A DNA stretch of 64,000 bases, taken from positions 23,744,709 through 23,808,708 of the forward strand of contig OZ316894.1 of NCBI GenBank assembly GCA_973895155.1. Reading direction: 5' to 3'. This document shows positions 10,374-64,000 of this stretch, piece after piece (position 1 is the stretch's first letter; every line of letters begins with the position of its first letter). Position numbers and translations under genes: made by a program. The notes under the pieces were generated by a model. It ran no database searches, was not told the origin of the DNA, and saw nothing but the letters and a program-made list of their open reading frames with translations. The stretch comes from Marsupella aquatica. Its lineage: Eukaryota; Plantae; Marchantiophyta.

Positions 10374-10385
10374 GCTCTGATACCA
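10374..10385 (-). other. Primer binding site (tRNA-iMet)
   Basis: Minus strand reads TGGTATCAGAGC 2 nt inside the 5' LTR, the canonical plant copia iMet PBS. Confidence 0.93.
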
Positions 10386-10387
10386 AT

Positions 10388-11242: not shown

Positions 11243-11243
<1 letters not shown>

Positions 11244-11281
<38 letters not shown>

Positions 11282-11739: not shown

Positions 11740-12270
11740 TAAGGTCTATGAAGGTCAATCAACGGTCTGGATCACTCAAGTGTCCTATCAAAACACTTTC
11801 CATTTTGGAGTCACATCAAGCAAATACTTTTATCTGCAGATAAATGCAAATTCCAAGTGTTTACAATTATGGGATAGTGCACAACCTTGTTAAGTGCACA
11901 GGGATTTTAGGTACATTGATTCAAGATCTATCAAGGTCAATCAATGGTGTGGATCAATCAAGGGTCCTGTCAAGTAAAACTTTTCATTTTGGGGTCCCAT
12001 CAAGCAAATACCTCTATCTACTTATTAATGCAAATTCCAAATGTTGCAATCTTGCTATTTAAGTGCACATAGATTTTGGGTATGTTGATTCAAGGTCTAT
12101 CAAGGTCAATCATGTGTATCACTCAAGTGTCCTCTCAAGTAGCACTTTGATTTGGGGTATGGATCACTCAAGGCTCCTATCAAGTAGCACTTTTCATTTT
12201 GGGGTCTCATCAAACATTATACCCATAGAAGCAAATTCCAAGTAGATGCAAATTCCAAGTGTTTGTGAGT
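11740..12270. repeat. Degenerate tandem repeat (~180-bp unit, about 3 copies)
   Basis: AAGGTCAATCA...GGATCACTCAAG...TTTCATTTTGGGGTC...TGCAAATTCCAA recurs near 11751, 11933 and 12102-12260. Confidence 0.7.
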
Positions 12271-12760
12271 ATGAGGTAGTGCACAATCTCGTTAAGTGCA
12301 CAACCTCGTTAAGTGCACAGCGGTTGCTTCTTATACAATGTTTCCAGGCCGCTACGAAAAATTGATTGATTGGCTCTGCACTGCTGCACCTCTTTGTCAA
12401 TCTGTGGCTGGCCGCGTTTGTTTTGGCGGGAGGGGTTCATCCTTCGAATGCAACAGAGATCAAAGTCCGATGGAACAGAGACCCACAGTTTGATCGAACT
12501 TTGCGAGGAGTATAATCACTAACGGAGCGGAATCGTCGATAACAACAGGCTAAATGTTCATATGGGCTCCTGGATGATGTGCTCCTCGCCGTTAGGTGTC
12601 ACTTTCTTCGGATCTGCTACGATTGCAATTGCGCAGATCTGTCCAGTGTCGATTGTCATCGACATTTCGGTTCCAGCGAATATGTAGGCGGCTGCTGTTC
12701 GACTCGGAGTCGTGAGGTGTAGTGTAGTGTAGTGTAGAGTAGTGTGGATGTGGTGGCAGG

Positions 12761-28200: not shown

Positions 28201-30530
28201 ACAGCGCATGCTTCAGAGTACTCAGGCTCATCGCTTTCAAAACTTCTCAGAATGTTTTTCCAGATTTGTCTCAGTTCATCTCCACTTCTTCTAATCTCCC
28301 CCTGGCTGCTTTGCCTGCGGAACTTCTCCTCGATCTTCTTCAGCGTCTCCAAAGATTCTTCGTCCTTCAGGCTAGGCTCTTGCCTCAAAGATTCCATCAT
28401 GCCACGAAACGATTCATAGCCTGCACCACTTTCCCTAGTGTTGGTTCCAACTTCGTCATTTGTAGTCCGCTCGCTGTGTGCTTCATGCTCTTCGTTTGTA
28501 AGTGTATCTCTCTGTGCTTCAAATTCTATATTTACAATGCCAACCCTCTGAATGTCTTCGCTATCAACACTCCCATCATGTTGAGGAACGGCGGCGGAGC
28601 TAAATGACTCAAACAAATTTCTCTTCCCATTCCCGGGGAGTAAACGATTAATATTATCGGAGAGTTTCGGAAAATTCCTGCGGAGGACAGTCAACTCCTC
28701 CATTTCCTCACGGGGTACAATTGCTTTCTCACTGGCTTCGTGCAACCAATCCTTAATCTCTGCGAGTAGTTTCTCGTCTCGTCTATCCATTCTAATCTTC
28801 CAATCCTGGCTGCCCTCTAGTAACAGAGTCTCCCGTTCTATGAGCAGAACATCGCCACTCCTCGGACTTCCAATCCTCTCTCTGCCCCCGGTGCTCCGGT
28901 CCATCAGCTCATCCATGCCCAACGCAAGAAATCTCTTTCTGTACTTGTTAACCTCTTCCTCTAAGGCATACAGCTCCTCGTCTCTTTTTACGAGAATTTC
29001 TTGCAGCATAGCCATAGACTCCTGATCATACTCATGCTTCTCTTCAGCCATTCTCTGGTACTGCCGTGCTTCCATTTGGATCCCTGCCTTCTCTTCCTGT
29101 AGTCGAGTTATCATTGCCATCGCCTCGTGCGCCGCACTGCTTGCCGCACTCCGCTCCTCCTCCAACTCCAGGTACAGTGCTGCAAGAGCCTCCTGCTCTT
29201 CGTGAAGCGCTTCTCTGAGCTCCATCACGAAAACCTCAGGATCCTGTTCATGATGCACAGTGCTCCATGTCTCCGTGAGGTCCTCCTCCATATCCAGCTC
29301 CATCGCCTTTTTGTTGCGAACAGCAGGGGAAGGCGAAAAAGAAGCCAAATTCCGGCACCATTCCGGAGTGCTGCTTTCACCGGCCAGAAAATCCGAATCT
29401 ATTGACAACTTCAACCTATTTCTGGACACATCAGCATAACGTGAAGAAGAGGCTTTGTGTGAAGAACGGCTTCTGGCGTTGCTGTACGAGAAGCTCTCTT
29501 GAGAAGAGTCCCTTGCAGAATTTTCGACGTCCACTGTAAGGTTCTGAGTTGCGCCACCGTCTGACAGAGAACGATTCCATGAGCCGTCTTTGCGCATGAG
29601 CTGCAGGCCATCGTCATTGGAATCTCCCACACTCTCCCTAATTTCGGAAGGCCCTCCTTCGCTGATGATCAAAGACACGCTATCGGCAAAAACGTTCGGC
29701 GAATGGTGACCGCAGGAGCACGATGCGCAGAAGCCCTCGTCGCCCCTTGCCATATTACTATTGTCGTTAGGGGAAACCTTGGCGAATTTCCTCTTCAGAA
29801 TCCTACTTGTGCCCCGCTTTGAGAGTGGCGAACAGCCTCCAGCCGAAGGAATTCCCATGCACCTCTGGCACTCACACCCGTCCGCGGAAGCAACACTAGT
29901 TCTGTTAACTACAGTGGGCTCACTGCTCCCGTTATCGAAGCTAGACTCGATGTTCTGGAGCGATCTTCTGCAGCTCCACCCTCGCCGTTGCGTTCGTCGA
30001 TAGCTGTCGGTGGTGTCGTCGTCCGTAGCCCAGATTATGGTGTGGTCGGAGCCGCAGTAGTTGACAGAGTTATTGTTACCAATAAATTTATCGCCTTTCA
30101 CACCATGACAGCGAAATTTCCCGGGACCACTGTCATCAGCCGAGCCCCGTTTCAAATTGCACACACAATCCGAGAGAAAGTGAGTGCAATCCTCGTCAAT
30201 AATGTTCATGACACTAGTAGGAGCCCCCCCGTACCTACCACCAAAGTTGCTGTGAGTCCCCGGCAGAACACAGGAATCCGCAAGTTTCTGGTAGCCCTTC
30301 AAGTCGGTACCCTGCCTCCTGTGCTTGTGGTGATGATCGCATGAGGCGCAAGATTGGTTGAACAGTCCTGACGACTTAATCAGCCAGGTCGTCGTCATGT
30401 ACATTATCGCGCAGAGAAAAATGCACAGAGCCAAAATTAACTCGAAGAAGGCCCGCATCAGTGAAGAAACCCTCCACGGATCCGAAACGTGGTGGAGGAT
30501 ATGCTCGTCATTTGCCCTAGATGCCATCAT
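25237..30530 (-). CDS. Myosin-binding protein (MyoB family; DUF593/GTD-binding/zein-binding coiled coil)
   Basis: N-terminal hydrophobic segment; DUF593 signature LYLELEEERSAASSAAHEAMAMITRLQEEKAGIQMEARQYQRMAEEK; C-terminal coiled coil RLKTLETDR. Exons 30530-27033, 26047-25995 and 25516-25237 have GT-AG sites in compatible phases. Confidence 0.9.
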
Positions 30531-33500
30531 CTCGCCTTCTGGACGACGAAATACTATTGGAATTCCAACTCCGACCCTGACCTTCTCGTAGACAAAGACG
30601 AACGCCTCACAAACGGACGAGAGGCATGCTGCATCCGGTAGCGAGGCCGTTCAGGATGATAACGACGACGATGTTCATTCTTCCAGACTTCGAGCAACAT
30701 CCCTTTAAAATGCATGGCTGATCTGGGGTGGTTGACGGCGGTACATTGAATGACAGATGCACAGTTGTCCCTTCAGTTAGCCATTTCATCCGCTTTCACG
30801 ACTGCAAAACCACGATCAGAATTGGGTCAGCACACTTGAAACATGGTTGAGGCAGCACTGTCTTGCAGGCACAGGCAGACATTGTAAGCAAACTCGAAGC
30901 GGAGTCCGCAAACAATTTGTTGAAGCTCCAAACGTGAACGACGGGTGATACGACTGTCATACGAAAGCCTATCTATCGAGCTACCCTTCCAATTGAGAAA
31001 ACTTAGGAAGGCCGACCCGATTGCCGTTTGAAGCGAGGAAATTTAAATCCAACCCCATCACATGTGGTTACGGCTTAAGGTAGCTACCGTGTACAGTGCA
31101 GGGGTTATGACGTAAGATAAGGGCATTTGCATGCGTAACAGCCAAAATTAGATTACTAGTGAATGTCCGTTGGCAACTTCGCACCTCGGCCTCAAACACT
31201 AACGATCCTCACTCCTTCCACTCGCAACTTTAGCGCATGAAGATCGTATCTTTGACTGTTCGTAAAGATCAGCTCTCGGCTTACTGCACGTAACAGGCTT
31301 TGATAGACCTACCGCATTTATAGCACTCTTTCAGTGTCATCACGGCCATCAAAGACATGAGGAAATTCCCTTTCTCTAGCTCTCCCAAAATTAACTAATC
31401 ATTCACACTCGCTCGCAATCCCGTCGAAATCTCCTGTAGGCTTTACGAGTGCGTTTCTGTTTCCCACCTTGTGCTGGTTTGGTCTGAAGACTGCACGTCG
31501 AGTCACTCCCTCGTTCAGCAATAAGTAGGATCAGTTTCAGAACGAAGACAAACTGAAATCATCTACGATCCAATTGATAGAAAGGGATCATGGATAGACG
31601 TAAGAACCAAGTTCTCAACACCAAAGAGAACTTAAGCTGACATGCAACACCGATTGCTACAGCTGCCAGTCAAGCCCAGGCCTTTTCGACATTAATTAAC
31701 AAGCGCTCAATCGAGAACCCCATAGATAGCTCTACAGCACGCAATCACGCCCAAAACCAAAAGCCCAGGCCCGCGACAAAACTGAACCGACGGAGTTCAC
31801 CATCCCTACACTCAGCCAAATTCTAAGGAAATCGAAGCAACGCTCAAATACAATGTTTCAGACAGCCTGCACCAAGAACAGAAGGAATCCTCAATCCTCA
31901 ATCTTACGACTCCTTCTTGTGCTCCAGCTCTCGTCCACACACTTCCGAGAAAAATCAAATATCCCAACCTCAGCCCTGCTATTAACGCGACACGCGTCGT
32001 ACACCATTCAACTCTAATTAAAAGTTTTGAATTTTCTTCACCTTCTCGTCGCTCTGCTCTGAGGTTCAATCTCATCAAGGTGCAGACAAAATCATTGGGC
32101 TAGAAAATGGGCTTCATGAGACAGACCAATTGTTTCGGTCAAACACTCCAAATGCTCACCTTTCGGAAATCCATGCAATCGGAATAGACATCGAACGCAG
32201 AATCAGCTCCACATCTCCGTTCGGTGAAATTCTTTCATCATCACAGCCGATTCCTAATAATCGAACGATTCCAACGAGCCAGCGACCATCCTTTCAACCC
32301 TAACGAACATGTCCCACCCGCGGCGGTCACCTGAGCAGCAAATGGATTCGAGAGGCCGCCAATCAGCGCCGAATTCTCCCGCCCCCGGCCGCCCCCTCCC
32401 CCCCCAACATTCCCCGATCGAAACACCTCTCCGGAAACTGCTGTAACGAGAATTCTTCGGAGCCTTCTCGTTACCCACCAAGCGAGAGATTCCTCTGCCT
32501 CTGCGTTTCGCAATTTCGCGTCAGAAAATTGAGGGCGACGAAATGAACACTAAACTTGAAAACTATGAACAATCTTGTCGAACTGCTGCGAAGGGATGCT
32601 GCAAATGCAGCTTACCAAGAGACAGAAGTGATCCGACGCATGCATCAACTGCTGCAAACGTGTCGAATTTCTTCGACCAGGTCTTTCAGAGAGTTGTACT
32701 GTATGTATTGACCTCCCTTTCTTTCTCCTACTTTTCTTTCCCGTAGTGTGTTCGCTCTTGACGCTCTACAGTACCGTATCCCTTCGTGCCGTGTACATTA
32801 CTACCACAGTACAAATCGTGTAACCACGTAAGCTCATCGATGACTGCGCAGTAGGTGTCCTGCCCTGGGTGTCGTGGGATGTGAATACCATACGGACGTT
32901 TATCCATGCAGAAATAGTTTTCCATCTTTGGGTGCCTTAATTTACCCTACTGCTATTTCAAGAAATTAGTTCGTGTACCCCCCTGGTTACATTTCTTTTG
33001 CCTTGTTTGAGAGTAAAAAGAATGTATGTAATATTAGCTTTAACTCAAGTTGTGAGAGGCTATTGTGGTCCAAAATGCTATGGTATCACAGATTATTCTG
33101 ATGAGATAGTTTTACAAATTTTAGTGAAAGTATAGGAGAAATTAATTACCTCATCCAAATGTGATTTTGCAATCTTCTTCATAATGAAGAGGAAAATAAG
33201 GGCCTTTAGTTTGCATTTTGAGAGGCTAATGTGGTCCATATGCTCTGTTAGCATACATTAAAATATTTAAGATCTATGAGATATTTTCACTAATTTTAGA
33301 GCATTAATTAATAAACCCAAGGCACAATGTTTTCCGTTAGTCAATTTAGGCATTAAATGACACTATATTTGACCACTTAAGTGCTCTGGGCACTCAATTT
33401 GAGTTGAGAATACTACTTTCTCAAGATCAATTGAGAAATTTGCTTTTCTCAACAAGGAACCCTAAGGTTTCAAGTAGCTGAGTCCTCTTTAGAATATTTG

Positions 33501-48229: not shown

Positions 48230-50405
48230 TGACCAACAAGTATTTGACGATGGCAAACAGGGTTATTGTCTCAAGCATGTGCTGAGGACTATCCCCACGT
48301 ACCACCTAATGACAATGGAGTTGCACAAAAACGGGTACCAGGAGATGGAGAAGGTATGTAGAGGATTTATGTGGGGTAAGGCTAACAACCATGGTAACAA
48401 GAAAGCCCTTCTTGCGTGGCAGGTGCTATATAGTCACGTACTCTATGGAGGGTCATACATTGCGTGCGACATTTTAGGGTTTGACCCCCTAACTTATAAA
48501 AGATTTTGCTTTTGGAAAACCCTATTTTTCTTTGAATTTTTGCCATTTTTTACTTAAAAACCTTAAAAACCTTTAAAGAAAATATTTTTAATATTAAATG
48601 GGCCTATTTGTTCTTTAAAGCCTACCAATCAATAAAATATGCCCTATTTGTTTATCCACAAAAAATTGGAAGTCTTCCACCATACCCATTCCTCTACTTC
48701 ACTGCATGTGATGTGCCACTTTAGTGGAAGTGATCGCCCTGAGCTCACCAAGTCCAAAGGCAAAGGGGGACTTGGGCTACAATCCTTTGAAGCATAGGCA
48801 CAATTGCTCAAGATGTGACATGTCTCCAAAATCTTTACTAATACAGAAAGAGAAAATGGGTTTGAATGTCAAAAGAAATGATCAAAAATGGTTTGAATTC
48901 ATGAACTGGGAAAAATAAACAAAGGAGATGGACAGCTAGAAGCTCTTCTGTTGAGCCCATCTTATAATCAAGAATCCCCAGCATCAATGTTGAACTAAGA
49001 CGTCATTCGCAACGACCATACAACCATGATTCATTCCATGCACACGTAGTCGACACAATCTCTACGTGGTTCACCTCTTCTCCAAGGCTATGTCCACATG
49101 AACACTCAAGCTTTTACTTCAAGAGTAAACGAACACACATGCTCTCCCTCTTCCTCAAGTTGCTCCGTTACAATCAGTAAGCACCACACACCAGCGGCTT
49201 ACACTAGCCCTGGTATATACAAGGTCACACACGACTAACCTAACCTCAGCTAAGATCCTAACTGTGGTTAGCCTAAGTGCCGTAACCTATGAGTCACAAG
49301 ACTAAGAGCAATCCTTAACAATCAAGAGGCCTGATCAAAAGCTGGTTTGAACTGAGGGGCTCCCTGAAGTTTCATTTTGGAGAAGGCAAGCTCCCCATAA
49401 ACCTCTCCATTGAGCAAATTGTGCTTTTGTATCTTTGTAATGTAGAGATTTCTGAACAACAGGGAGTGAATTTAAGACATTTCACGGCCAACTAAGCAAT
49501 CAAGAATGTACGGGACCTCATAAACCTGCAGGGCGACTGGATCTCGGTTGATGATCTCAATCAGAGAGTTTGGAGCAATTGGTGGATTGGGGACACTGAG
49601 TTTGAACTATTTTACAGGCAACTGCGGCAGGGTACTGGACAATCTCCTCCAACTCTACAAAATTGTGCGGGCTGGCAGTGGAACTGGAAGAGCAGGAACA
49701 GAGGGTGGACCTTCCCAATCAAAACCTGGAGCCAGTGCAGGCCGCAGTGTCCATGCGATCACACAAAATTTAACCAAAGATTGGGACAAAATAGAACTGC
49801 GATATAGTGGCAACAAATCTGGAAACGTATCTAGGGTGGATGGTCTTTATTAAGGTGAGATTCTGCTTGTGGAAACTATCAAACCAGGTTTTTTTTACCA
49901 ATGGTAGAGCTCTCCATGGGGAGTTTTGGACGGTATTTGCGAGCGTTGTAAGATTCAGATGGAACACACTGAATATTTGTTCTTCAGCTGTAGCACTGTT
50001 GCGACGAGATGGAGGGAAGTTTGCTCGATGCTGCAAGGGTCTGATGCAATGTCGGTTGCTACCGGAACCCTTTTTGAACCATTGATGATGGCTATCAAGA
50101 TGCAGAAGAGAAAACCAGGATTGCCAGTGTTGATGGCTGAGATGTGTATATGGAAGGATAGAAATGATGCGGCGTAGTCTCAGTTCCTCGGAAAACTTCC
50201 AGGTTGGGTGGTGCTCAGACAGACGGGAAAGTACCTCCAAACGATGCTTGATGTCACACATTCTGAGAAAAGAAGAAGCCAAATTAACAAAGTGATTAAC
50301 CAGATCCAAGTGGTGGAAACTCTGGGAGAATATATAGCTAGTCCACTTTCTCGTAAAGAGCCAATCATGACAAAAACCTGGTTCCACATACTTCACCATT
50401 TTTAG
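48230..50405 (+). mobile_element. 5'-truncated L1/LINE ORF2 remnant (post-RT region and zf-RVT), interrupted by insertions
   Basis: HVLRTIPTYHLM...VCRGFMWG...KKALLAWQ, then ELTKSKGKGGLG; zf-RVT-like CERC...EHTEYLFFSC...W and IWKDRN. Many stops. Confidence 0.8.
48988..49320. mobile_element. Solo LTR of a related copia family, with perfect 5-bp TSD
   Basis: TGTTGAAC...CCTTAACA (333 bp) flanked by ATCAA (48983-48987 and 49321-49325). Shares AGTCGACACA, TACGTGGTTCACCTC and GACTAACCTAACC blocks with the LTRs at 4537 and 10388. Confidence 0.9.
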
Positions 50406-51271
50406 TATTTTTCCTGAAATTATGGAGCAAAGTCTCATAGTAGAGAAGAGAAATGTGAAAAATGCCACCGGTGGTTTAACATTGATGGCAGTGCATGATG
50501 AGTGAGAACATCCACTACTCATTAGGGAGAACAACTTTTTATCAACCTTTCCGGGTATAGCAGTGGAGACAGGAAACAGGAAACAATTTTCCTGTTACCA
50601 GGTAATTTCTCCTGGTAACAGGAAATTGTTATTGTAAAGGTGTACTATTTGGCAAAGTTTTTCAAAAATTCACGTAAGGAACAACCACATACTTAAGCTA
50701 AAAATATTCCTACTGGCATAAGACACGACGTCAGATATAAGGGAAAAGTGTGCTCACAGTTTCTCAGAGAGGTTCCAATCCATTGTCACTTGCTCAGATT
50801 ATAGATAAAAAAGGGTTGTCATTCAATTCACTGCTGTTTATATACAGCAACATTTCTAAACAGTCCACTTTTAAATGCTTCATTTAGTTCATATACTTCA
50901 TTAGTGTGGTTAAAAAACGGCTAACCATAATACCCATGGAGGAATGGAGTAAGCTCAGGCGGGACCCACCACAAATCCAGTTGTGGACTGAATTATGTTA
51001 TCGGAAACATAGGGGTCTGTCAGGCAGAGTGTGAAACTAGCGCCAGGCGCTAACAAAGGATTAAGTACGCAGAATAATGGGACGATAATAAAAGCTTATG
51101 GAACCATCCAATGGCACTAACCACAAAAAACAAAATTTTATAAATAAGTTAGTGACCAGCGCCCGACGCTAACCAAACCACATAAAAAACTAGAGTAATA
51201 TCCGTTGACTAAAGACAAAACAACATAGTATCCGTTATGGAATACGACAGTTAAGGATAAATCGAGTCCCT

Positions 51272-54200
51272 CTATAAACCATTTGCGTTGTGCCTCTGCA
51301 ACACAAGTCTGACTTCTCCAACTGTCAAAATCGGCTGGCTACACAGGGTAGACTCCTCTACATGAAACTTGAAGACATTTATGAACACCCAGTACAAATG
51401 TTTACAGGGCATATACGGCTTGCCGCGGGAATGACGACGGAAGAAATCCTCACAGGAACAAGTAGGGAAGATGCACATTTGGACAAAGTAAGTGTTTGGC
51501 GATTGAAGGTTCTCGTGAGTCCGTATTCTGAATTGTTTCCCATAAGCAATTCCACTAATCACATCCCACTCTCCATCCAGAGTCATAGCTTCTTTTCGAG
51601 CCGACTCCATTCGTTTACTATGAGCCACAGTTAGATTAGAGCGAGGTCTAGAGTTCCTCCCATTCCTGCTACGAAGGCGCACGTTGGGCTCCGCAAAATT
51701 GATTTTCTCTGGAAATGTGTTAACATTGATTCTCAAGTCGAATGCAAATGGTGCAGTTCGAGTTCGAGAGGGCGCAGCTGTTTGGACCATAGAGACTCCC
51801 TGCGCTTGAAGGTACTCTATCTCGCCAGGCGAGAGGTTTGTTCCTTTCACAACTGGCAGGATGTCCGGCACAGGAGGAAGGCGTTCAACACCACGACGCG
51901 GGCGGCTCTTGTAGCATGTGCTGTTTGGGCAGAACCATATCATTTCGGCAATGGGAGTTCCTCTGAAAATGCAATGTCCGCTGACAACAATGCCGACAAC
52001 ACCGGCAGCAGAATGGAACCCTATTTTCTTGACACGATTTCGACACTCATCTCTGTCAGAATTTCCATGCAAGGTCCCATTACACTGTGGCCCTGCCCCA
52101 TATTTGGCCGTCCGTCTCAAATGCCAGCTTCCTCTTGGAACGTCCATTTCCAATGGAGCTGATTCTGTCGGCAAACGTTGAACCACAGCGGGGGCACTGC
52201 GTGGTTGTTGAGATGATGTTGTTTCCCTTGTGGCTTCAGGGGTGTTCGCAAGGGAATCGCTTTCACTTGTTGAAGTGTCACTCCCGCAGAGGTCTACTAC
52301 ATGATCTACTACATTGGCGGGAATGGAAGTGAACTCAATCTTGTTGAGATTCTTCCATTTGAATCCTCGAGTATTTGGGGTAGTGATGAGAATGGTGTCA
52401 TGCCGATGGGAGTCTTGTGGCGAGACAATCCCAGTTGCAAGTCCCTTCCTCTTAACCGATTTGGTGACAATATCTCCATTCAGAGGAGAATTCCTACCCA
52501 GATCAAAATCGGCAGAGTTGGAAAGAATCATGTTAGTGGCTTCTTCGAATAACTTGGGTGAACCTGCTTGGTCTGCCGAACGGAATGCCAATTCCCAGAT
52601 AGTTGGCCCCTTCCCTCTATTGAGTCCTTTCCGATATGCACCGTAACCTGCAACTTGAGATATAGCCCGATTTTGATCAACTTCGCATGCTTCGAAGAGG
52701 CCCACCATTTTTTTGGTTGCCCATGCTTTCATTGAAGCGTGCCTTGACTCAGAACCTGTACAGTTTGGAATGAGGGCACCTTCTTCTGCGCTTTTGCTCT
52801 GCAATGAAGTGGATCCAGACCAACTTTAGTCAATTTGTTTAAGCAGTGCCAGGCGCTAGCAATGTATATAATATACATTAATGTAATGTTGGTATTATCA
52901 AGTGTTCATAAGTCATGAATGTGGCAAAGTTCTCTGTACAGTTTAAAGTAGCGCCAGGCGCTAGCATTGTGTATGATGTAATAATATAATGTTGGCCAGG
53001 CGCTAGTAAAAAACATGGCAAAGTGACTATTGTAAGCATTGATAAAACTTACCACGCGAATGAAATTCCCCCACTGACGCCATCGAACGACCCACCATGA
53101 TATCCAACTCTGCAACATCATCAATTTTCTTGGAACACAGTTGCCTGCTTGCCACCATAACACAATCTCCCTAGAAACTCGGTACGCAGCAACAAATGAT
53201 ATATGGAGCATTTCGCAATTTCTCCCACAGTCTTAGATGTTCAGGTTGCCTACCCTCGAGTACTCCCTCTATGGAATGTCGATGGAAAGACTGGTAAAAG
53301 TGGAATGCATCGGAACGTTCACGTTTAGGGTCTGGGTGACCCCCAAAAAAGACATTGCGAACGGCAATCCATCCAGCCTAAGCATTGTCGGCCATAAAAC
53401 CTTGAATGGTAACCTCATGTAACCCATTTTCCTTACAAACCTCTATCATAATTCTCCATGCCTTCTCAAAGGACTCTGTGTCTTCAGCTTTTAGTTCGCA
53501 TGTGAATATTGTACAAAGAGCTCGAAAGTTGTGATCGTAAACGTGTGCGCTAAAAGTAAACCAGTCGGTTGTCACTCGCTTCATGACATCAAAACTCACC
53601 CAAGCCCCTTCCAGTCTTCCGCCAGGTTGCATCTGACGTAAAAGATCTACACCAGATCCATGACCCTTGACTGACATTTTGAATATGTGGGGACAATCTG
53701 CTAAACAACGCTGACCCAGAAGAAGATACCTTCAGAGAAAAGAAATATTATTTGACCGTTGCATTCGAGCTAGGAAATCTAACTCACCACGACCAGCCTG
53801 GTCCATTAGAACGCTGCGACAAAGGGACGCAAATTTCTGAGGAGTAGATAGAACCATGAGAGACTTCCAAATTTTGGTTTCTTCAATATCTACGATGTCG
53901 TCAACGTTCTCGCAAAGAGCTTTCACAAGCGAACCAGTCGCCGAATTCAAAATCCCAGCCGGTTTTGCAAGAGGATTGGCTTCGTGATTTCTTTTTATTA
54001 AGTCCTCAGCCATCTTTTCAGCACTCCTGGAGAAAACTTTTCTACTCGGATGATTATGTTCACCTATATGTACCGCGAGCCGAGACATGTGACTACAGGT
54101 TTCTGTATCAAGTAGGACCTGTGGATACATATAGAACAAGCGAGCAGGGCAAGAGTCCACACAAAAAGGAATCTTTTCACAGTAGTGACATACTATACCA

Positions 54201-55079
54201 CCCTCTTCAATGAGCGAACCCACCACATGCTGGCCACTAAGCTTAGGGGTACCAGCCCACGCTTTAGAATTGCATCTCTTCTTTCGCAAAAAATATTCAC
54301 AGGACTTGTTCCTGCACTCGACGAACCCAGTACAACTGACTTTACCAAACTCCCAGTGTTTTTTTGGTTGCACGTTTGCGGTCGTCGGAAAAATCCTGGT
54401 CCAAATGTAACAATCTTTGGCACGGTCCATGTCACGAAGTCTAGATCCTTTGGACTGCATTCCCACAATGGGAGGCAATTCAAATACAATATTTCCGTTG
54501 TACTTGTTTGGCAAACAAGGAACTTGATCATGTCGAAAGTCCCCTGCCGAGATAAATCTTGACAATTCACTATGGCCTGTGGCCTTGAGTAAGGCGTCCA
54601 TTGCACTCCGCGCGGTAAACCTTCTGGACATCTCCGGAAGTGGCCACCGGTTCACTCTTAAGGCAACTAGAGCTTGGAGCTTTGTGCTTCTCAGGAGGAT
54701 TGGGCGCAACTTCCTCATCTTCACTCTCAGATATTTCAACAACCTGGGGCGGAATGTCCTGAACAACCGATTGAAGAGGAGTAGGTCTGACATGAAGCAT
54801 GTAATGAAGTCCTACATTCATGTGCCAGAAACGTATTCCGTCATCCACATCAAATGCCGCAGCTGGTTCATGTCCTCCACTCGATGACTCCTCAGGAACA
54901 ATCGATAGAATGTCATTGATTCTCAAATCGAATCTCCCACACAGATAGTTCTCGCTTACTTGCCTGTAAGTATCAGAAACCTGCACGGGAACTTTGATGA
55001 CTTCCCGGGTACAAGCACGTGTAATAACAATTGAGCACGACATTGTAGACGAAAGAAGTTTAGGCCAGAAGTAATTCAT
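51272..55079 (-). pseudogene. MULE-type transposase (WRKY/GCM1-like Zn finger, DDE core, C-terminal SWIM), disrupted
   Basis: SCTGFVEC...CHYC...C...HIGEHNHP; candidate catalytic residues in VSFDVMKR, FMADNA and TGSESRHASMK; SWIM CSCEDF...PCKHLYWV. GT-AG intron 53052-52799; in-frame stops at 53732-53734 and 53378-53380; frameshifts near 54640 and 53200. Confidence 0.82.
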
Positions 55080-55969
55080 GCAATAGCCCAATCCCAACCG
55101 TATTTCTTGTGCTTATAACACCCCTTCAAGGACCACCGGCCGTTGAAAGAGACGTTTCAATATGACATAGAACACGCACAACTTTGCGTCCGTTGAAATC
55201 ATAAATGATACATTTGTCGTTTTTGCCCGTCAAGTGCGGGTGTCAGGAATATTTATTACATGAATACGACTAGATAGTAGTCTATACAAGTGCTTCCATT
55301 TCATTAGCGTAGGGCGCTACCTAAAAGCCATTGGAATAACAATGACATAATATGAAAAGTATTCTGACTAGCGCCTGGCGCTAGCATAATTACACACGAA
55401 ATATTGATGCAAATATAGTAAATTTTTACTAGCGCCAGGCGCTAGTATTGATACAATAAACTTAATCTCATAATATTAAGTAAAGTTTGGTTACTACAGG
55501 TGAAACAGGTACATTTAGGAGTTTGTTGACAATATCTATTTCTTAAAAAGAACGTTAATCAAATTGTTCAAATGGCTAGCGCCGGGCGCTAGCATTTGTT
55601 CACCAATAAGTTCTTCAATTTGGTAGTCTCTTATTCGTTAGCGCCCGGTGCTGGCATTGCATGTTTGTCTGCAAGGTGCTGAGACAACGGTAACTTTTAA
55701 CGGTAACTAATGTTCAGCGTGATTATCACGCAAACATTTTAGCGTAGTTCACATTAATACTTATCGCAATTTCTAAGTTGTCGCTTTCCGTCACTGATAA
55801 ATTAAATTGAATCTTGTCGTTCACAATGAGTAACGTCTCTCCAACCGATTACAAAGAGGGGAATAGCGCTCATTGATCGGATATAATACGGACGCAACTG
55901 TTAATATGGTACGAAGAACTGGTAATTAGTCGTGAGGATTCCGTTCGTACACCTTTCATCGTAAAGACG

Positions 55970-58900
55970 ATGGATGCAATCCCCTCCTCGTCGAGGGGGT
56001 ATAGTGTGGTTGGGGATCAGGATCGTGGGTATTGCGAGTCTTCTGAGTCTTCATTCTCTGGTTCAATGTATACGCGTCGAGTAACGAGGTCCACCGCATC
56101 GCTTGTTCCAATCTCAAGTATTTCGTTTGCCAAACTAGCGAGAAAGAAGATGGAGAATCTTGACACATTTGCGATTCAAGATGTTTCATTTTCCAAGATG
56201 GATCTTATTTCGAAACATGTCATGTCGTTTGGGAAGGATTTCAGAGGGTTTGACAAAGAGCCTCCACAAATTCCACTATGTCGATTGGTGCATATGGAGG
56301 TTGTCCGAACTCTACAGAAAGACAGTTCTTCCATCGACAAGCTAAAAGACTCTTTCCGTAGCATGGGATACAATTCTTCGATTGGAATGAGGTTTTACGT
56401 TCAGCCTACCGATGCTGAGGGAGCGCTTCTCACCTGTACTCAAGAAACTCGTGAGAGTTGGGATCCAATATGGACATCTGAGAACGAGAAATTCGAGGAA
56501 GAATGTGCTGCCGACCCAGATTTTCTAGTTTTGAAGGATAGAATGTTCTCAGTTTTTGACGGGAACCATAGGCTTTACTCGTGGACTCTTGTCACTCAAG
56601 AGAGTCCCGAAAACCCAAAGTACCACCCGCGTGTGCTTTGTACTGTTTTCAATGGCGACAAGGGTTCGTTGATAGAAATCAAAGCGGCTATGCACACCGT
56701 TAACCAGTAAGATACCCTTTTGTGCAGAACTTCGTGAGTCATTATGAATTGTTCATTCTTTCTAGCATAACTTTCCGAGGCCATGTTTTGCGAGCGCCCG
56801 GCGCTGCTTATATGTTCTCATTTCATTCTTTTATTTCAGGCTAGGACAAGCAGTTGTGGAACCCTCCTGGATCCTAGATGCCGATCGAATTAAGCGGATC
56901 TTGATGCACGACCTGGAGTACTATAGTAAGCTCATCGACCCTGCAAATTACAAGAAGTTTGAGCAGATCAGGGTGAAGACGCGAAAAGGATCCTGGTACA
57001 CAAAGAAGATACCTCAGGAGGCTCTTTTGTACATTCTATGTCAGGATAAGATTGTCGTATTCGAACCAGTTCAAGATTGACATGGAGTCCGCTGCGGCCC
57101 TCGGTACCCCTTGGTCGGTCGAGGAGGTTTCTAGAAGGCATGCCATTATGATGAAGGAAGCAACCAAGGAATGGGTAGTTAAGACCTCGAAAATCACTCC
57201 TTTGTTGAGTCCAGAGTTTGAGGACTTTCTATCTATGTGCACAGAGATGTATGCTGTCACTGAGAGGAATAAGCGAGAGAAGAAGCCAGATACCGTGTTG
57301 TGTACCATGGACCGGGCCAGGCTTTTTACAGCTGTTTCGGCTCTTGACGCCAAGCTACGAAGTACTTTGCTTGTAGCACATTGCAATCCGGAGCTCCGGA
57401 GACAATTCTTCCATCCGAATAGCGTCAATGATGATCCAGTCAAACAGTGGTGTCACACTTGGATTACATGGAATAATGTAGAAGGGATTGCGGTGGGGAT
57501 GTTGCAATGTGCTCTACGAGAGGTCCAACAAACCATTCCCGTGAATCGCTTACAAGATTGGGCATGTGAATCATTCGAATCTCTCATTGAAATAGTTACG
57601 AATGATTTTAGGAAATATGGTGACTCTGTCAAGGGTAAGTTTTTTAATACAATGTGGCCCTCGAAGTATCCTGACAAAGAGGATTACTCTTTGAAGAACC
57701 AGAAGCGAGCAAAACGGTATCTCTACCGTTTTTACATCCACATGGAGGCTACCAATCCTGATTACTTCTGGGCGTATCCCGCCGCCTTCCTCAAGTGGAC
57801 TGTCTTACCGGAGAGTAATTCTTTAGTTGAATTGTATTCTATGTATCCTACCGAGGGAATTTTCCCAGCAAGACCTTTGAGTGAATGGGAGAGAACCCAT
57901 TGTCCATGGTACCTGGATACAGATAGATGGGACTCGCCCTTTGATCACAGAGAAAAGGATGCTTTCCATAAGCTGTCTAAGTCCCAGATCCCAGTCAACG
58001 TTGTTTCTGACATGAAGCAGGGGCTTCCGGATGATGTGGATCAATCCACAACAGAATTGCAAATAATATGCGAGACAACAATTGTTCATGTTGACCGAAG
58101 CAGGAAGCCTCGCGCCAAAGCAAAAGCAGATCTACGGCCCCAAGTGAATCAACAAGATCTGGGAAAAAACGTAAGTATAATTTGTTTCCTTTGGTTAGCG
58201 CCCGGCGCTGCTATGGCAATCAATATCTGTCACATTGTTAGCGCCCGGCGCTGCTATGGCAGTCAATATCTGTCACATTGTTAGCGCCCGGCGCTGCTAT
58301 GGGAGTCCAAATCTGTTACATTGTTAGTGCCAGGCGTTGTTATGAGAGTCAACATTTTAGAAACTGAATTGGTATTTATTACTCGGAAAGATGTATATTT
58401 AAGGCCAAGTCTTATGATAGTTTGGCCAGCGCTGGGCGTTAGCATTGTCGTTGTCTCTTTATTGACGGATATCACGTCGACATCCATTTGAACAGGAAGA
58501 AAGTCGGACGCCGTGGTGAGCGGAGATACAAAGATAGATGCCACCCCAGAGGCTTCAGAAGCCAATACCGGAGCACCATCCGATCCAATTACTCCCATCG
58601 ACAAAGGGAAGGCGATCGCGCCGGTGGATGCTACCAGTACAAGGAAGAAGAGAAAAAGGACCATTGAAGGTGGATCTTCTTCTCGAGAAAGTGCTGCTGC
58701 TGTAGGTCTTCAACGCGAAGTCGGGGACTTCAAGAGTAGACTTTCAAGGCATTGCCTTGTTGAATCTAGCATCTCAGAATTCTACGACTCAACGTTTAAC
58801 AAAGGGGAGAAGCCTGACTGGGTGAATGGTGTAGAGAAGTGGGGAAAGGATCTCATGAAGTCTGGCTTTCGAGAGAAGGGCATTGTGCGTGGTGGAAAGG

Positions 58901-59855
58901 AGAGATCGTTTGGGGTCCACGCGGGTTTCATCTACCTTCCAACAGGACTTAAACCATCTCTGCTAGACAGAAAAGTTCCTAAATGAAATGTCCCTGACCA
59001 CACTTTGTCCACATCTTTCTTTCGTGGAATGGACCCATTTTTATCTGATGACGGAATGCTGGCCATTTTACATAACGGGGAATACGATCCGATGTCTCAG
59101 GTTATATTGGCTTGTCAAGATTCAAAGAAGTTTCATTGCATCTCGTCGCACAATGTTGTCATGTCAGTTCCAATATACGCGCCGAAGACTGATCGATAGG
59201 TAAATTTCTCATCGTGACATCTGGTTTGCCGTTAAAAAATTGTCTACAAATGCATCCATTGACATACCTTGCTTGGGTTATATTACAGATCTTCACGCTG
59301 AGGCTGGACGTCTTCTCTCGAGTGTCTGAAAAAGGGAAGGTGCCAAAAGACTCGAGGTTTAGACCTCTGTCTGCCACCGAAGATCCCTCAATAACAAATT
59401 TAATTGGACTTCCCTCTCTCAAAGTCGATCCAACACCTGAGATGGAATTTGCTGGAAATGCCCGATTGTCTGTTGGATTCATGCAATCTGTGATTGAGCT
59501 CATCACTCATCCTAGGGATATTTTCATGGATTGGATAGTGGGGTCGGGCAGCTCTTTTGTAGCTAGAGACTATTCTAGGAGGTTTGTAATTGGAGTGGAG
59601 AATAGGAAAGATTTCGTTGAGACTGGTTCCAAGGTGTTCTTAGATCTACTTTCTCCAAAGGAAGTCGAAACTTTGCCATCCCCAATTCAGCCACCCGAAA
59701 AGAAAAAGAGGGACAAGCTCCGTTCTGTACTCAATTTTGACTCTGATGATGAGTCAAGTGGTGGTACAGCAGACGAAGATGAGGATGGCACACCTGAGGG
59801 GAAGGGTCAGGAACAATCCGCTGGCCAGAGTGACAGCGATGACTCTTCCGAGTAA
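55970..59855 (+). pseudogene. Transposon cargo gene: ParB/Srx-like N-terminal domain plus C-terminal N4C/N6A (beta-class) DNA methyltransferase-like domain, disrupted
   Basis: IPLCRLVHMEVVRTL...IDKLKDSFRSMGY and VFDGNHRL (56558-56572) fit ParB-N. FMQSVIELITHPRDIFMDWIVGSGSS...SRRFVIGVE (59478-59600) fits N6_N4_Mtase motifs X/I/II. Introns at about 56707-56839, 58171-58495 and 59200-59288; frameshift ~57060; stops at 58984 and 59197. Confidence 0.72.
58196..58345. repeat. 43-bp tandem repeat (x3-4) carrying the palindrome, inside a cargo-gene intron
   Basis: TAGCGCCCGGCGCTGCTATGGCAATCAATATCTGTCACATTGT unit at 58196, 58239, 58282 and (degenerate) 58325. Confidence 0.9.
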
Positions 59856-60668
59856 TGTTATGAAACTCGTAAGCTTCTTTCTCCTTTCCAGTTCCTTCAT
59901 GCCTTTGTGATATCCATTCATACAATCGGTTGACGAACTTCTGTTCTCACCCAGGTCCGAATGGAATACGAGAAGACGCTTCAAACTCAGAAGAAAGGTA
60001 GCTCGTTTTGAAATTGTCACTCCGGAGAAACCATTTGTGTTACCCTCTTACGCTGAGAATGCTGCAAGAATGGAAGACAATCAGAGGACTCTTTGTTGGG
60101 AAAACAAAGGTCTCCGGCTACGAAGAGAAGTTGATAGAAAATTTGTCCGAAATCCTTATGTAGACGACATTTGTAGGAGCAAGTATGTAGATGACGAGGC
60201 GGTCTCTACCGAGAGGTCACAGAGCTCCGAATCGGAATCGTCCGATTCTTAAAGATTTTTTTCGGCTTACATTTTACCAGCGCCGGGCGCTGTTATCTTA
60301 ATCCATTTATTTATCATATTAGATATGATTTGTTTACATTACATTGATAATAAAATGGATTAAATTCCTCATTTCCCTTACTAGCGCCGGGCGCTCCCCA
60401 AACGTCTATTTTTCTACTTGCGAATTTTGAATCCTCCGTCCGTTCCTTGGCCCCGCATATTTTGTCGCTATCGGAATAGTCGTCTCTTTCTCAACGGTCC
60501 TTTTTGCGTTGAACCTTTCTGTGATACGTTTTTTCTGATCTCCGAACCTAAACTCTCCATTGGGTCACTCTTGCAAGTTATTTCAAACACAACCTCTCTC
60601 GAAGTCGAGTCATTTCAACACCACCGGTCTTGTCATTACCCTCGATTGCGTTTATCAGTGCCCACCAG

Positions 60669-61139
60669 ATGGAGAAGAAGGAGATCATGTCTTTGGAGGA
60701 GATGCTTGCCTTCTTTGCTCCTTCCAGAGTTCGACCGGACGAGAGTCACTTTAGCTCCTTCGAGTCCATTCATGGTGACACATCCAGCGAGACCTCGACC
60801 TTCCGGAATCATTTTTCTCTTCCTTATGATGAGGCGATTAGTCCTGGGGAGAGGAACTTACCTTGGATTAACGACCGGGACACTCCGCTCGCAGTGGTTG
60901 ATCATTTTTTGTTTCATTCTCTCGTTCCTGCTGATGGTATTCAGCCTATTGAGCTACGAGTACAAGAGCGACTGGGATGTGTTGACTTCCTAGATACAAA
61001 TGTTCCAGACCCCGGGAATCAGAGTTCAGAGTTTTGGCGCCCCTTGTCTCCTTATGTGCGTCTCAGGGGTCTAGGTTTCAAGCAAAACCACAGACGTGCT
61101 AGGGCGGGCATCGACGACGACTGCCAATTGCAGAGCTAA
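60669..61139 (+). CDS. Third ORF inside the MULE, unknown product (~156 aa)
   Basis: Uninterrupted ATG ORF MEKKEIMSLEEMLAFF..., bracketed by palindrome clusters and free of the motif itself. Confidence 0.4.
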   Translation: MEKKEIMSLEEMLAFFAPSRVRPDESHFSSFESIHGDTSSETSTFRNHFSLPYDEAISPGERNLPWINDRDTPLAVVDHFLFHSLVPADGIQPIELRVQERLGCVDFLDTNVPDPGNQSSEFWRPLSPYVRLRGLGFKQNHRRARAGIDDDCQLQS

Positions 61140-64000
61140 AGTTAATCACGACGGAGATGGTTTCAGTGACACAAGCTTCAGTGGCCATAGGCTTTCCATT
61201 TAAGCTAGCGCCAAGCGCTGCTTTTGTTTGTCTTGGACCGTGGGATTTCTTCTATGGGTGATTCTAAGTTCATGTATTTCCGGCTCCATCTTTGGCCCAT
61301 TTTGGATCAGCGGCCCTGTTATGTGCGGCTCAGGTCGAGATAAAGCACATACGGGCCAGGGCGGGCTACATTTAAGATAGCTAGATTTTAGCTAGCGCCG
61401 AGCGCTGCTTATGTTCATGTTATGCCGTGGGTTGATTTGAAGATGATCTGCGGATGGTGTAATACCGGTTATATGTTTTGACCAATTTTGGAATTAAGGA
61501 ATGCACTTTTGGATCGGCTCTCTTGTTCTTTCATGGTCATTCATTGATTCCTAGATTTGAGCTAGCGCCGAGCGCTGCCTATGGTCATTGTGTTCCGTGT
61601 TTAGACGTTGATTTCTTGAGGTCCGACATTTAATGTAGCGCCCATCGCTGAAAATATTCAACGTCTGCCATTGCCTCTCTTTGTTGGAAATGCTTCAAAT
61701 TGAGTTTCCTGTGTTCACTTCTCGATTGATGTGACGGACAATCTCTTCCAGCATACTAGTGCTGGGCGCTGCTAATATCCGCATGTTTTGGCAACGCCTT
61801 TTTCTAATGGTCGTTAAGTTTACTGTTCTCTTCTCGATTGACGTTACGTAGAATCTCCATCTTAGTCGTTATTTTATGAATACCTAAATTTTTGCCCTTC
61901 CCTGCCGGCATGCTATCGTTGTGCGATGGCCATCACCGGTTTTTGGCAACACCTTTATTCTAATGGCCCCTACTTTCCTTGACAATTGGATGGTGGTATT
62001 GAAAACGACTGAAAATGGGGTTTATTGATGGTGTTTTTTTAACTTCTTGACCAAATAATGGAGCTCAATCCCATGTTCTTTTTTCCATTTCTCCTGGTAA
62101 CAGTAACTGTTTGCTGTTACTGTTTCCTGGTTCCCGTCGTTTGTAAATACCCCAACCTTTCCCCCTAACTTGCCAAAATCTCTAAGGTGTCCCCCAAAAG
62201 AATGTACTTGCTTCCTTGCCCCCATACCCTATCGTTGGGTCCCCACTGCCAGATGTCAATCTTGACGTGATTGGCCCAGACTAACCCGCCCCGAGTTAAT
62301 TAAGCTCCCCCCTCCCTATGGCAGCCTGTTTTGGAATTGCGACATTTTTTCTTTGTAAAAAACAGCGCAAGAAAATGCAGGGAAAATGATGTGCAGAGTG
62401 ACAACTTTGTTGTGTCTCTGTGTGTAAACCCTAGGGGCGAAGGTTACAGCTGCTCAAAGGTTGAGAGTGAAGGTATGACACTACTGCAAGTGGGGAGGCA
62501 AATGTGTAAACATTTGCGACAATGTTTCCTTTGTAAAAACAGGGCTAGGAAGTCGATGCTGCATACTCTGGCTGGGCTTCCTCCCGGGTCTGAAGCAAAG
62601 TGAAGCCCACTTTCAAAACTGGCTGCCACAGGGAGCGGGAAGCTGAACTCAGGTGGGGTAGTCCAGGCCATCACTCCTTGACACCTGGCATCAAGAACCC
62701 AAAGTTGGGTTAGTACTAACCCACATATGGTATGGAGGGCAGGGAAGCAAATAAATTTGTTTGGGGGACAGGTTGATAAAAAGCTGTTAGGGAGAATTCA
62801 CAAGAACTGTGATTGGCTGTTGGCCCTATCTCGATGAGACTGGGTAAGTTGAATCAAAGTACTTACCAGCAGCATAGCAATAGAACTAGACAGGGCATGG
62901 ATGAGTCCAAATACTTTGAGAAATCCAGTGAGTGGAGAAGACTATGTGTTGATAGGAAGCAGGACAGTCAGTACAGACCAACCCTCTCAAGGGACAGTGA
63001 GGGTGTAGGGCGCGGGCTCTCAAGGGCCTTGGCCTGATTTGTGTGCTATTTTTTTTAGGTCTCTTGACCATGGTCATTGGTCTCATCGGTTTCTATCTGG
63101 TGTGGCTTTTGTCCCCTTGCGTGTTTTTGACGGCTTTGTGCCCTTTAAAATAAATAAATAACGATATCTACTACTTACCAATATGTTAAGATAGGGATAT
63201 CTTAGATTGTCAACACATTAAGCCCACATGGTCATGACACTTGAAAAGAATGACACTTTTTTTGCATTGTCCAAAGACTTGAACAATGTGTAATATCACA
63301 ATGAAAAACATGTTTTCCCTAGAAGTTAATTCCATGAGAAGGGGTTGTGGTGACCCCCCAATTTTGTGGCTGGGCGGTAGGTCAGTCGGTCAGTCGGTTG
63401 TGAGGGCCTCATGGGCCAGCTTTGACACCCTCTAATAGTACAAAAAAACACTTGACCACCAACCATGATTCATAGGCTATGGTAGGCATCCCACCACAGA
63501 CAAAATAACAACCCCCTCGATAGGGCTCTCAAACCTCATAGTCCACAAAAAGTCCCAAACAGATGCTTGTGGCATTTTCAGATAAATTTTGCTCTCAAAC
63601 CTCATTACTCACAAAAAGTCCCAAGCAGATGCCCATGGAATTTCAGATGGAACTCTGACATGGGTCACACTTTCCCACACGGGCTGCCCGATAGGTTTGT
63701 TGTTTGAATGGGATCATGGGATCCCCTTTTGCCATAATAGCCCATGCCAGCAAGTTCAATTAGGTTCCCAGAGAAAAAGAATGGCCCTTGTTAGAGGTGG
63801 CCGACCATTTTGGGGCTGGGGTCCGGCCCGCGTCCTTTAGTAGGGGGTCTCAGCTATGATCCGCGAGCACTCTCATGGTAATCCGGGTTGAGGTTTGGAT
63901 GGACATGGCTGAACAATGTGCGGGGCTCCCAGAGCCTAGCTCGCACACTTTTGTTGTGGGATTTGTTTGGTTCCCATTGATCACTTCTGGTTGTTACAAA

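What the first reader, a model, noticed from the sequence alone, without database searches (positions are those of the whole stretch)
50553..62152. Plant Mutator-like transposon carrying a ParB-methyltransferase gene and its own array of palindromic sites: candidate self-targeted epigenetic system
Seen: one TSD-bounded element holds a MULE transposase, a divergent spliced ParB-like/amino-MTase-like gene, a third unknown ORF, and about 20 copies of one palindrome confined to its introns and spacers. Known: Arabidopsis VANDAL MULEs have degenerate TIRs and encode VANC anti-silencing proteins that bind short motifs amplified in the element's non-coding DNA; bacterial ParB loads at ~16-bp palindromic parS sites and spreads. 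Inference: the cargo protein may recognise the palindromes and mark or protect its own family against host silencing, using prokaryote-type domains rather than VANC. I do not recognise this architecture from described plant MULEs, but novelty needs a search.
Basis: partly seen in the sequence, partly recalled or inferred. Interest (0 to 1): 0.93.

Follow-up and report, generated by a model that had tools for sequence, protein, structure and literature searches.

The report
Plant transposon with ParB self-address tags
This is a broken copy of a repeated plant jumping gene that carries a second gene predicted to join a bacterial-type ParB fold to a likely inactive DNA-methylase domain, plus 22 copies of one palindrome found only in its non-coding DNA, which the protein likely binds so the element can recognise and keep active its own family, an idea already proposed for seaweed transposons.

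Summary
Observation confirmed. An 11.6-kb element (50553-62152) sits between 10-bp target duplications. It holds a broken transposase-like gene, a divergent five-exon ParB/amino-methyltransferase-like gene, a third ORF, and 22 palindromes (AGCGCCNGGCGCT), all non-coding, none elsewhere in the window. The whole unit, cargo included, is repeated in related DNA runs; named homologues come from a liverwort and a fern. Corrections: both main genes are broken in this copy, and its private changes are mostly C-to-T at CG/CHG, a host-methylation scar. The methylase keeps its SAM-binding motif but not the catalytic one (phage DLPY, Riccia DLPT, here YLPT), so mark-writing is unlikely. The design is in print for algae (Ectocarpus Sola1; Bostrychia Plavaka with inverted-repeat arrays), and this scan found it many times on other DNA, same genome included. 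I found no land-plant description. New here: two distant homologues carry a different inverted repeat in the same intron, and the element keeps far more CpG than a neighbouring Copia. Best reading (0.45): a non-catalytic, ParB-type self-recognition factor. New variant of a known kind; binding untested.

The parts
50543..50552 (.). left target-site duplication CAACCTTTCC
62153..62162 (.). right target-site duplication CAACCTTTCC
50553..50622 (.). left end: GGGTAT plus degenerate terminal repeat with two exact CCTGGTAACAG copies (50592, 50611)
62085..62152 (.). right end: one exact CCTGGTAACAG (62093), ends ATACCC
53053..55202 (-). transposase-like gene, exon 1 (Cys/His-rich region; candidate catalytic D in SFDV and D in FMADN, read by eye); stops at about 55113, 53732, 53378; frameshifts near 54612 and 53200
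   Evidence: no Pfam or NCBIfam match
52799..53052 (-). transposase intron with 2 palindromes (plus one weaker copy at 52991)
51272..52798 (-). transposase-like gene, exon 2 (candidate catalytic E in GSESRH; C-terminal SWIM-like zinc finger)
   Evidence: SWIM E 0.031, below cut-off
55203..55825 (.). divergent intergenic region with 5 palindromes (55305-55653)
55826..56706 (+). cargo exon 1: ParB/Srx-like domain with DGNHR; premature stop at 55874
56840..58170 (+). cargo exon 2: helical region; frameshifts near 57053 and 58131; intron 1 (56707-56839) before it holds 1 palindrome
58171..58495 (+). cargo intron 2 with 5 palindromes, 4 of them in a 43-bp tandem array (58194-58352)
58496..59199 (+). 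cargo exon 3: start of the beta-class methyltransferase-like domain, motif IV position reads YLPTG (58933-58947); stops at 58984 and 59197
59289..59851 (+). cargo exon 4: SAM-binding motif I region
   Evidence: Pfam N6_N4_Mtase E 4.9e-4; PDB DpnA-type E 1.5e-5; PHROG 3008 E 2.4e-5
59955..60252 (+). cargo exon 5; resembles the C-terminus of Riccia P0018 (LPxYAxE...RNPYVDDI), seen by eye
60669..61139 (+). third ORF, 156 aa, no assigned family; may not be a gene
   Evidence: region repeated like the rest
51038..61771 (.). 22 palindromes, consensus TAGCGCCNGGCGCT(A/G): 2 after the transposase, 2 in its intron, 5 in the divergent spacer, 1 and 5 in cargo introns 1 and 2, 2 before and 5 after ORF3

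Best explanation
The element is a broken copy of a repeated, likely Mutator-type DNA transposon whose cargo protein likely binds the element's own palindromes through its predicted ParB-type half and likely keeps the family transcribed or shielded from host methylation without methylating DNA itself. Shown: boundaries, gene layout, palindromes confined to non-coding DNA, repetition of the whole unit, degenerate catalytic motif, and CG/CHG scars on this copy. Predicted: ParB/Srx fold (from a Riccia homologue) with an intact GxxR nucleotide motif, and a retained SAM pocket. Inferred: a dimer loads at the palindromes (five flank the shared divergent promoter), may spread from them as ParB clamps do, and excludes or counteracts CG/CHG methylation; the methylase fold is kept as a DNA- or SAM-binding module; each cargo lineage reads its own palindrome, which limits the effect to its family, as VANC does for VANDAL.
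For: 22 of 22 sites non-coding, none outside the element. All 24 depth bins from 50871 to 61838 are deeply covered in three runs, e.g. X1 975-5062 against 65 on the unique flank. 19 of 33 cargo codons that differ among copies are synonymous, P 0.003 against an assumed one third. Fold model of a Riccia homologue (pLDDT 82.6): best VIA matches KorB (Z 7.9, rmsd 6.9, 191 aligned) and PadC (Z 7.3, rmsd 3.1, 97 aligned); 14 of the 17 rows listed down to Foldseek rank 20 are ParB, Noc or sulfiredoxin; Atlas gives DUF3723 0.95 and ParB_N 0.92 for the window's own exon. [DE]GNHR in 105 of 150 listed homologues. Motif IV: phage DLPYG aligns with Riccia DLPTG and window YLPTG; 19 of 21 motifs found among 33 homologous proteins read D[LM]P[ST]G. 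Two distant homologues carry a different inverted repeat in the same intron 1, sharing 11 exact bases (16 of 2000 shuffles). CpG at codon junctions: element 97 observed/134 expected, Copia 12/42, P 5e-4. Ends carry a different repeat, 3 exact copies, all within 70 bp of the termini. Precedents: VANC, BisD.
Against: No binding, expression or methylation data. This copy was apparently methylated despite its 22 sites: 18 of 20 private C-to-T/G-to-A changes are in CG or CHG, so any protection lapsed or never applied here. No fold match reaches E 0.001 or Z 8, and a helix-turn-helix was not demonstrated. The fold is from a homologue, not from the window's protein. The CpG contrast rests on one Copia of unknown age. 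The intron comparison is two short contigs with no transposase in view; L004's intron 1 has no such repeat and L001's is cut off. The motif IV aspartate and proline are conserved in 21 of 21 motifs found in homologues, which catalysis would also explain.
Confidence: 0.45

Rival explanations
1. The cargo binds the palindromes but works as a transposition aid: ParB-type loading and bridging would compact the 11.6-kb element and bring its poorly matched ends together for the transposase, with no effect on silencing.
For: Terminal repeats are degenerate beyond 6 bp; sites are spread along the whole length; ParB proteins bridge and condense DNA (abstract start of 10.1101/2024.05.08.592561); BisD is proposed to clamp ICE DNA.
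Against: No palindrome lies within about 480 bp of the left end or 380 bp of the right end; five cluster in the divergent promoter region; CpG retention points to less methylation.
Confidence: 0.2
2. The cargo is an active amino-methyltransferase that writes 4mC or 6mA at or near the palindromes, blocking host 5mC readers or writers.
For: SAM-binding motif I is kept in the window and in most homologues; D-x-P is invariant in the 21 homologue motifs found and one fern protein has DVPF; phage enzymes carry DLPY at this site; the palindrome core is CCNGG, and CCSGG is a known N4C target (PMC8885841).
Against: The base-stacking aromatic (Tyr of SPPY, PMC10406627) is T or S in 19 of 21 homologue motifs; the window has Tyr in place of the Asp, and the change counts leave no room for a majority Asp allele in 3 of 4 runs, with one unassigned T-to-G change in the fourth.
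Confidence: 0.15
3. The palindromes are sites for the transposase's own Cys/His-rich DNA-binding region or for a host transcription factor, and the cargo does something else.
For: Nothing here measures which protein binds; the transposase has an N-terminal Cys/His-rich region; four copies spread by plain tandem duplication.
Against: The ends have their own repeat; other inverted repeats sit in the same cargo intron in another cargo lineage; algal ParB cargo genes also have adjacent inverted-repeat arrays on an unrelated transposase.
Confidence: 0.15
4. The cargo is a passenger without a role for the element, and the palindromes are decayed local duplications.
For: This copy's cargo has 3 stops and 2 frameshifts.
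Against: Synonymous excess among copies; 209 homologues at E up to 0.001 in a 50%-clustered library; 13-bp cores conserved in unlike flanks.
Confidence: 0.05

Closest known systems
Sola1-1_Ec32 of Ectocarpus (PMC12477816; passages; supplement rows)
   Same: DNA transposon with an accessory gene on the strand opposite the transposase, encoding ParB-like plus N4C/N6A methyltransferase domains (1104 aa; here about 1260 aa); authors propose self-binding and self-modification.
   Different: Sola transposase, 4-bp TSD, 282-bp TIR, brown alga; no palindrome array or motif degeneration in the passages seen. Sequence homology to this protein was not tested.
Plavaka and Chondrus Mutator elements with PAG1-3 (bioRxiv 10.1101/2025.02.11.637652; passages; supplements not seen)
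   Same: Three accessory genes move between transposon superfamilies, Mutator included; the ParB-like PAG3 has adjacent inverted-repeat arrays proposed as its target; PAG2 has a PF01555 methylase.
   Different: ParB is fused to a 2OG oxygenase and the methylase to a SET domain, in separate genes; arrays are tandem beside one gene, not spread over the element; red algae.
VANDAL/VANC anti-silencing system of Arabidopsis (PMC5735166; passages; PMC6446971 passages)
   Same: MULE with degenerate or absent TIRs; short motif enriched in introns, spacers and tandem repeats; motif differs between families.
   Different: VANC motifs are 8-9 nt and not palindromic; binding and hypomethylation are shown for VANC and untested here; the cargo has ParB and methylase folds.
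Phage ParB-N6N4 methyltransferase fusions; KorB and BisD clamps of bacterial mobile elements (PMC12704722 passages; PMC12409273 abstract; KorB search listing)
   Same: Same domain pair occurs in phages; GxxR P motif present; KorB is the top fold match; BisD activates its own element from parS-like sites.
   Different: Spliced eukaryotic gene with a long helical insert and degenerate catalytic motif; nucleotide binding and sliding untested.
Marchantia MpDN4MT1 and bdelloid N4CMT (10.1101/2021.02.12.428880 and PMC8885841; passages)
   Same: Beta-class amino-methyltransferases of bacterial origin in eukaryotes, one in a liverwort.
   Different: Host genes with shown 4mC activity (SPPY in N4CMT), no ParB term in either text; homology to the cargo not tested.

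Membership tests
Mutator-like element (MULE) | 8-11 bp target-site duplication | tested here: met
   10 bp; range from PMC6446971
Mutator-like element (MULE) | long TIRs, or degenerate/absent TIRs in non-TIR families | tested here: inconclusive
   6-bp perfect ends and a gapped match of about 60 bp; fits the degenerate type only
Mutator-like element (MULE) | MULE-type DDE transposase | tested here: inconclusive
   no Pfam or NCBIfam match, also with stops read as X; candidate D, D, E and an xxFH motif read by eye from recalled MULE patterns
Mutator-like element (MULE) | zinc finger (SWIM) on the transposase | tested here: inconclusive
   SWIM E 0.031, 14.3 bits against a 19.6 cut-off
VANDAL/VANC | short motif enriched in non-coding element DNA | tested here: met
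VANDAL/VANC | VANC-family protein | not tested
   no VANC sequence was compared; the cargo's domains are ParB-like and methylase-like
VANDAL/VANC | accessory protein binds the motif and lowers methylation in trans | not testable with these tools
   needs binding and methylome data
ParB-CTPase fold | ParB/Srx N-terminal fold | tested here: met
   Riccia homologue model residues 1-160 match PadC, Srx, Pnob8 ParB, SerK, SbnI, Z 5.3-7.3; Atlas on the window exon; each score is modest, the family agreement carries it
ParB-CTPase fold | GxxR P motif (Box II) | tested here: met
   DGNHR in the window; [DE]GNHR in 105 of 150 homologues; definition in PMC12704722
ParB-CTPase fold | helix-turn-helix DNA-binding domain of parS-binding ParB | tested here: inconclusive
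   KorB alignment runs into the helical region (model 2-366) but at rmsd 6.9
ParB-CTPase fold | NTP binding, clamp closing and sliding | not testable with these tools
   sequence does not predict the nucleotide (PMC12704722)
beta-class N4C/N6A DNA methyltransferase | motif IV before SAM-binding motif I | tested here: met
beta-class N4C/N6A DNA methyltransferase | SAM-binding motif I | tested here: met
   DWIVGSG in the window, DFAGGWG in Riccia
beta-class N4C/N6A DNA methyltransferase | catalytic (D/N/S)-x-P-(Y/F) | tested here: not met
   YLPT in the window; 20 of 21 homologue motifs lack the aromatic, 1 fern protein has DVPF
algal ParB-methyltransferase transposon accessory genes | ParB plus N4/N6 methylase gene opposite a transposase inside one DNA transposon | tested here: met
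algal ParB-methyltransferase transposon accessory genes | sequence homology to the Ectocarpus or red-algal proteins | not tested

The most novel reading that the evidence does not exclude
Land-plant transposons run a eukaryotic ParB-parS system: a nucleotide-gated clamp with a dead methylase loads at family-specific palindromes, slides over the element and keeps it free of CG/CHG methylation, and the clamp gene with its address has been swapped between transposon superfamilies, each lineage evolving its own palindrome.
Probability: 0.25. Interest if true: 0.85.

Novelty: new variant of a known kind. Interest (0 to 1): 0.5.

Why it matters
VANC is described as the only shown case of a transposon binding and modifying its own sequence (Bostrychia preprint). 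Algal ParB-methylase cargo is a prediction without a defined target. Here the candidate target is a sharp 13-15 bp palindrome and near-full-length homologues exist in a liverwort, so the idea becomes directly testable. If true it gives a second, independently derived anti-silencing system, possibly a sliding ParB clamp on eukaryotic chromatin, and a sequence-addressed tool for keeping loci unmethylated. The score is held down because the concept is published for algae, this copy is dead, and the scan has reported the same family many times.

Tried and rejected
No genome is held for this window, so copies could not be collected. Word-index homologue searches for longer proteins with cargo exon 1 and exon 2 found nothing; the full HMMER search did. 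No relative of the transposase in metagenome or prokaryote genome contigs, none of the ParB exon in viral contigs, none of the DDE core in plasmids or of cargo exon 4 in phages at E 0.01. Single-sequence fold of the window's ParB exon failed (pLDDT 34.5) and was not used. Profile searches of the ParB alignment against PDB sequences and Pfam gave no ParB match. Homodimer prediction gave no verdict. No RNA holder was listed. ORF3 found no family (Pfam DUF5030 E 0.0028 below cut-off; PHROGs none; Atlas none; earlier findings none). Weak Pfam rows (TRAPP, PyrI_C, Anthrax_toxA E 0.21, CopB) are below cut-off and treated as chance. In alignment A6 the two window exon-2 rows were misplaced onto the ParB region, so they add nothing to the model. 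The window's palindrome was not found in L001-L004 at up to 3 mismatches. Ten paper searches showed no land-plant description; Repbase and Dfam could not be searched, Iyer 2011 (cited by the Ectocarpus paper) was not read, and the Bostrychia supplements, which list curated elements, could not be seen.
Full report
Observation. The element runs from 50553 to 62152 between two copies of CAACCTTTCC, with ends GGGTAT and ATACCC and only a loose match beyond. The left and right flanks together align to one arm of an inverted repeat at 62704-62788, apart from a 30-nt gap, so they were adjacent before insertion. The pattern AGCGCCNGGCGCT has 22 matches with up to 2 mismatches in the 64-kb window, all inside the element, against a shuffle mean of 0.55. 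With a 15-mer and up to 3 mismatches, 22 of 22 sites fall in the 34% of the element that is non-coding (exon limits there were approximate, and the final limits move no site). A different motif, CCTGGTAACAG, has 3 exact copies in the window, all within 70 bp of the two ends.

Genes. The minus strand holds a two-exon transposase-like gene (about 55202-53053 and 52798-51272) with at least three stops and two frameshifts. No Pfam or NCBIfam transposase model matches it; SWIM matches below cut-off. The Mutator label therefore rests on the 10-bp TSD (8-11 bp in PMC6446971), the SWIM-like finger and candidate D, D, E residues that I read by eye from recalled patterns. The plus strand holds a five-exon gene of 3777 coding bases with GT..AG introns, three premature stops and two frameshifts. 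A 156-aa third ORF has no assigned family. Host genes were not tested; the nearest named cargo homologues are from the liverwort Riccia sorocarpa and the fern Adiantum nelumboides, so a liverwort-like host is an inference.

Family. No genome was held. Contigs of four public runs were laid on the region. In X1, X2 and X4 all 24 bins from 50871 to 61838 are deeply covered (X1 975-5062, X2 399-1303, X4 1680-12022) against 65, 33 and 47 on the unique left flank; X5 has little. Depth here is no copy number, and X1 and X2 match the flank without differences, so they are not independent of the source. Still, cargo and ORF3 are repeated along with the transposase. Among the 36 coding sites shown (40 of 53 rows shown; 4 intronic rows left out), 19 of 33 changed codons are synonymous, and the two stops in that stretch are minority states.

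ParB domain. HMMER found 209 homologues of exon 1 at E up to 0.001, among them near-full-length Riccia proteins of 1191 and 1207 aa whose ParB and helical parts match the window's exons 1 and 2 in order. A 523-residue stretch of Riccia P0031 folded well (pLDDT 82.6). No match passed E 0.001 or Z 8, but the ParB/Srx family dominates the N-terminal matches: KorB Z 7.9, PadC 7.3, sulfiredoxin 6.3, Pnob8 ParB 6.0; 14 of 17 listed rows to rank 20 in Foldseek; best viral match a Spo0J-like protein at E 0.004. The Atlas independently placed the window's exon with DUF3723 and ParB_N. The GxxR motif (PMC12704722) is present as DGNHR, and [DE]GNHR occurs in 105 of the 150 listed homologues. A helix-turn-helix was not shown.

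Methyltransferase domain. Exon 4 matches N6_N4_Mtase (E 4.9e-4), DpnA-type structures (E 1.5e-5) and PHROG 3008. The order is beta-class. A Rhizobium phage enzyme, itself matching M.RsrI, aligns DLPYG with Riccia DLPTG and with YLPTG in the window. Among 33 homologous proteins scanned, 21 motifs were found: 19 D[LM]P[ST]G, 1 DVPFG, 1 DFPIG. The aromatic that stacks the target base (PMC10406627) is thus lost in liverwort versions, and this family appears to have lost the aspartate too: the per-run change counts leave no majority restoring allele in X1, X2 and X4, with one unassigned change of that kind in X3. Motif I is kept. Earlier scan notes had flagged a missing motif; my test agrees, with the caveat that D-x-P is invariant in homologues and a fern version may be active.

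Methylation history. Of 36 sites where most other copies differ from this one (taken from the rows shown, 40 of 1938 and 40 of 53; one site at 79% was included and one qualifying site, 61494, was missed, both transversions), 20 are C-to-T or G-to-A towards this copy and 6 the reverse; 18 of the 20 are in CG or CHG, against 35% of cytosines (P 6e-7). This copy was therefore likely host-methylated after insertion. Over the longer term the family kept CpG: 97 observed of 134 expected at codon junctions, against 12 of 42 in the Copia ORFs at 5360-9400 and 97 of 103 in a host-like ORF. This fits anti-silencing but is one comparison between different transposon classes.

Co-variation. Four metagenome contigs carry the ParB exon with the same first intron position. 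L002 and L003 (54% identical to each other, 39-41% to the window) carry a different inverted repeat, CTCGGC-N7-GCCGAG-like, in intron 1: two copies in L002, one in L003, sharing 11 exact bases (16 of 2000 shuffles). L004 has none there and L001 is cut off. None has the window's motif. This is a hint, from two contigs without visible transposase, that the address changes with the cargo.

Mechanism. Best reading (0.45): the ParB-type half likely binds the palindromes, may load and spread, and keeps the divergent promoter and the element active without catalysis. Rivals: transposition aid by bridging (0.2), active 4mC/6mA writer (0.15), sites for the transposase or a host factor (0.15), passenger (0.05).

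Known systems and novelty. Ectocarpus Sola1-1_Ec32 has the same gene pair and the same proposal. The Bostrychia preprint describes ParB-like accessory genes with inverted-repeat arrays and notes homologues on Chondrus Mutator elements. Phages fuse ParB to N6N4 methylases (also PMC4738411 passages), and BisD activates its own mobile element from parS-like sites. A 2026 review of plant transposon gene capture has no ParB or methyltransferase term, and ten searches found no land-plant case, with Repbase, Dfam, Iyer 2011 and the Bostrychia supplements unseen. The scan has noted this family or its cargo repeatedly in the same genome and in others; those notes are not independent support. Verdict: real, new variant of a known kind, interest 0.5.

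Noticed in passing
window 50530-50552 with 62163-62238, and 62704-62788: The element inserted into one arm of an older inverted-repeat element; several runs join 62186-62238 to 62704-62727 on opposite strands.
   Followed up: partly
L002 882-902 and 977-997; L003 743-763: A different inverted repeat with a 7-nt spacer in intron 1 of a distant cargo lineage.
   Followed up: partly
window 50592-50621, 62093-62103: Subterminal repeat CCTGGTAACAG, a candidate transposase site distinct from the internal palindrome.
   Followed up: partly
window 49770-50462: Another repeat just left of the element: raised depth and 76 contigs with loose ends at 50462 in X1; the ORF text resembles a LINE zinc-finger fragment (recalled, not tested).
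   Followed up: no
window 5360-9400 (-): Decayed Copia-like retrotransposon ORFs (identified by eye), strongly CpG-depleted.
   Followed up: partly
window 12743-21014 (+) and 27000-30650 (-): Host-like genes: a multi-exon gene resembling TOPBP1-type BRCT proteins and a 1216-aa ORF resembling myosin-binding proteins (both recalled, not tested).
   Followed up: no
proteins P0025, P0130: P0025 has the ParB domain followed by a short tail without helical or methylase parts; P0130 joins a retrotransposon gag to a ParB piece, perhaps a gene-model artefact.
   Followed up: no
window palindromes 51038-61771: The core is CCNGG with the centre base G 8, C 7, A 6, T 1, and 14 of 16 mismatches in the 13-bp core are C-to-T or G-to-A (counted).
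   Followed up: partly
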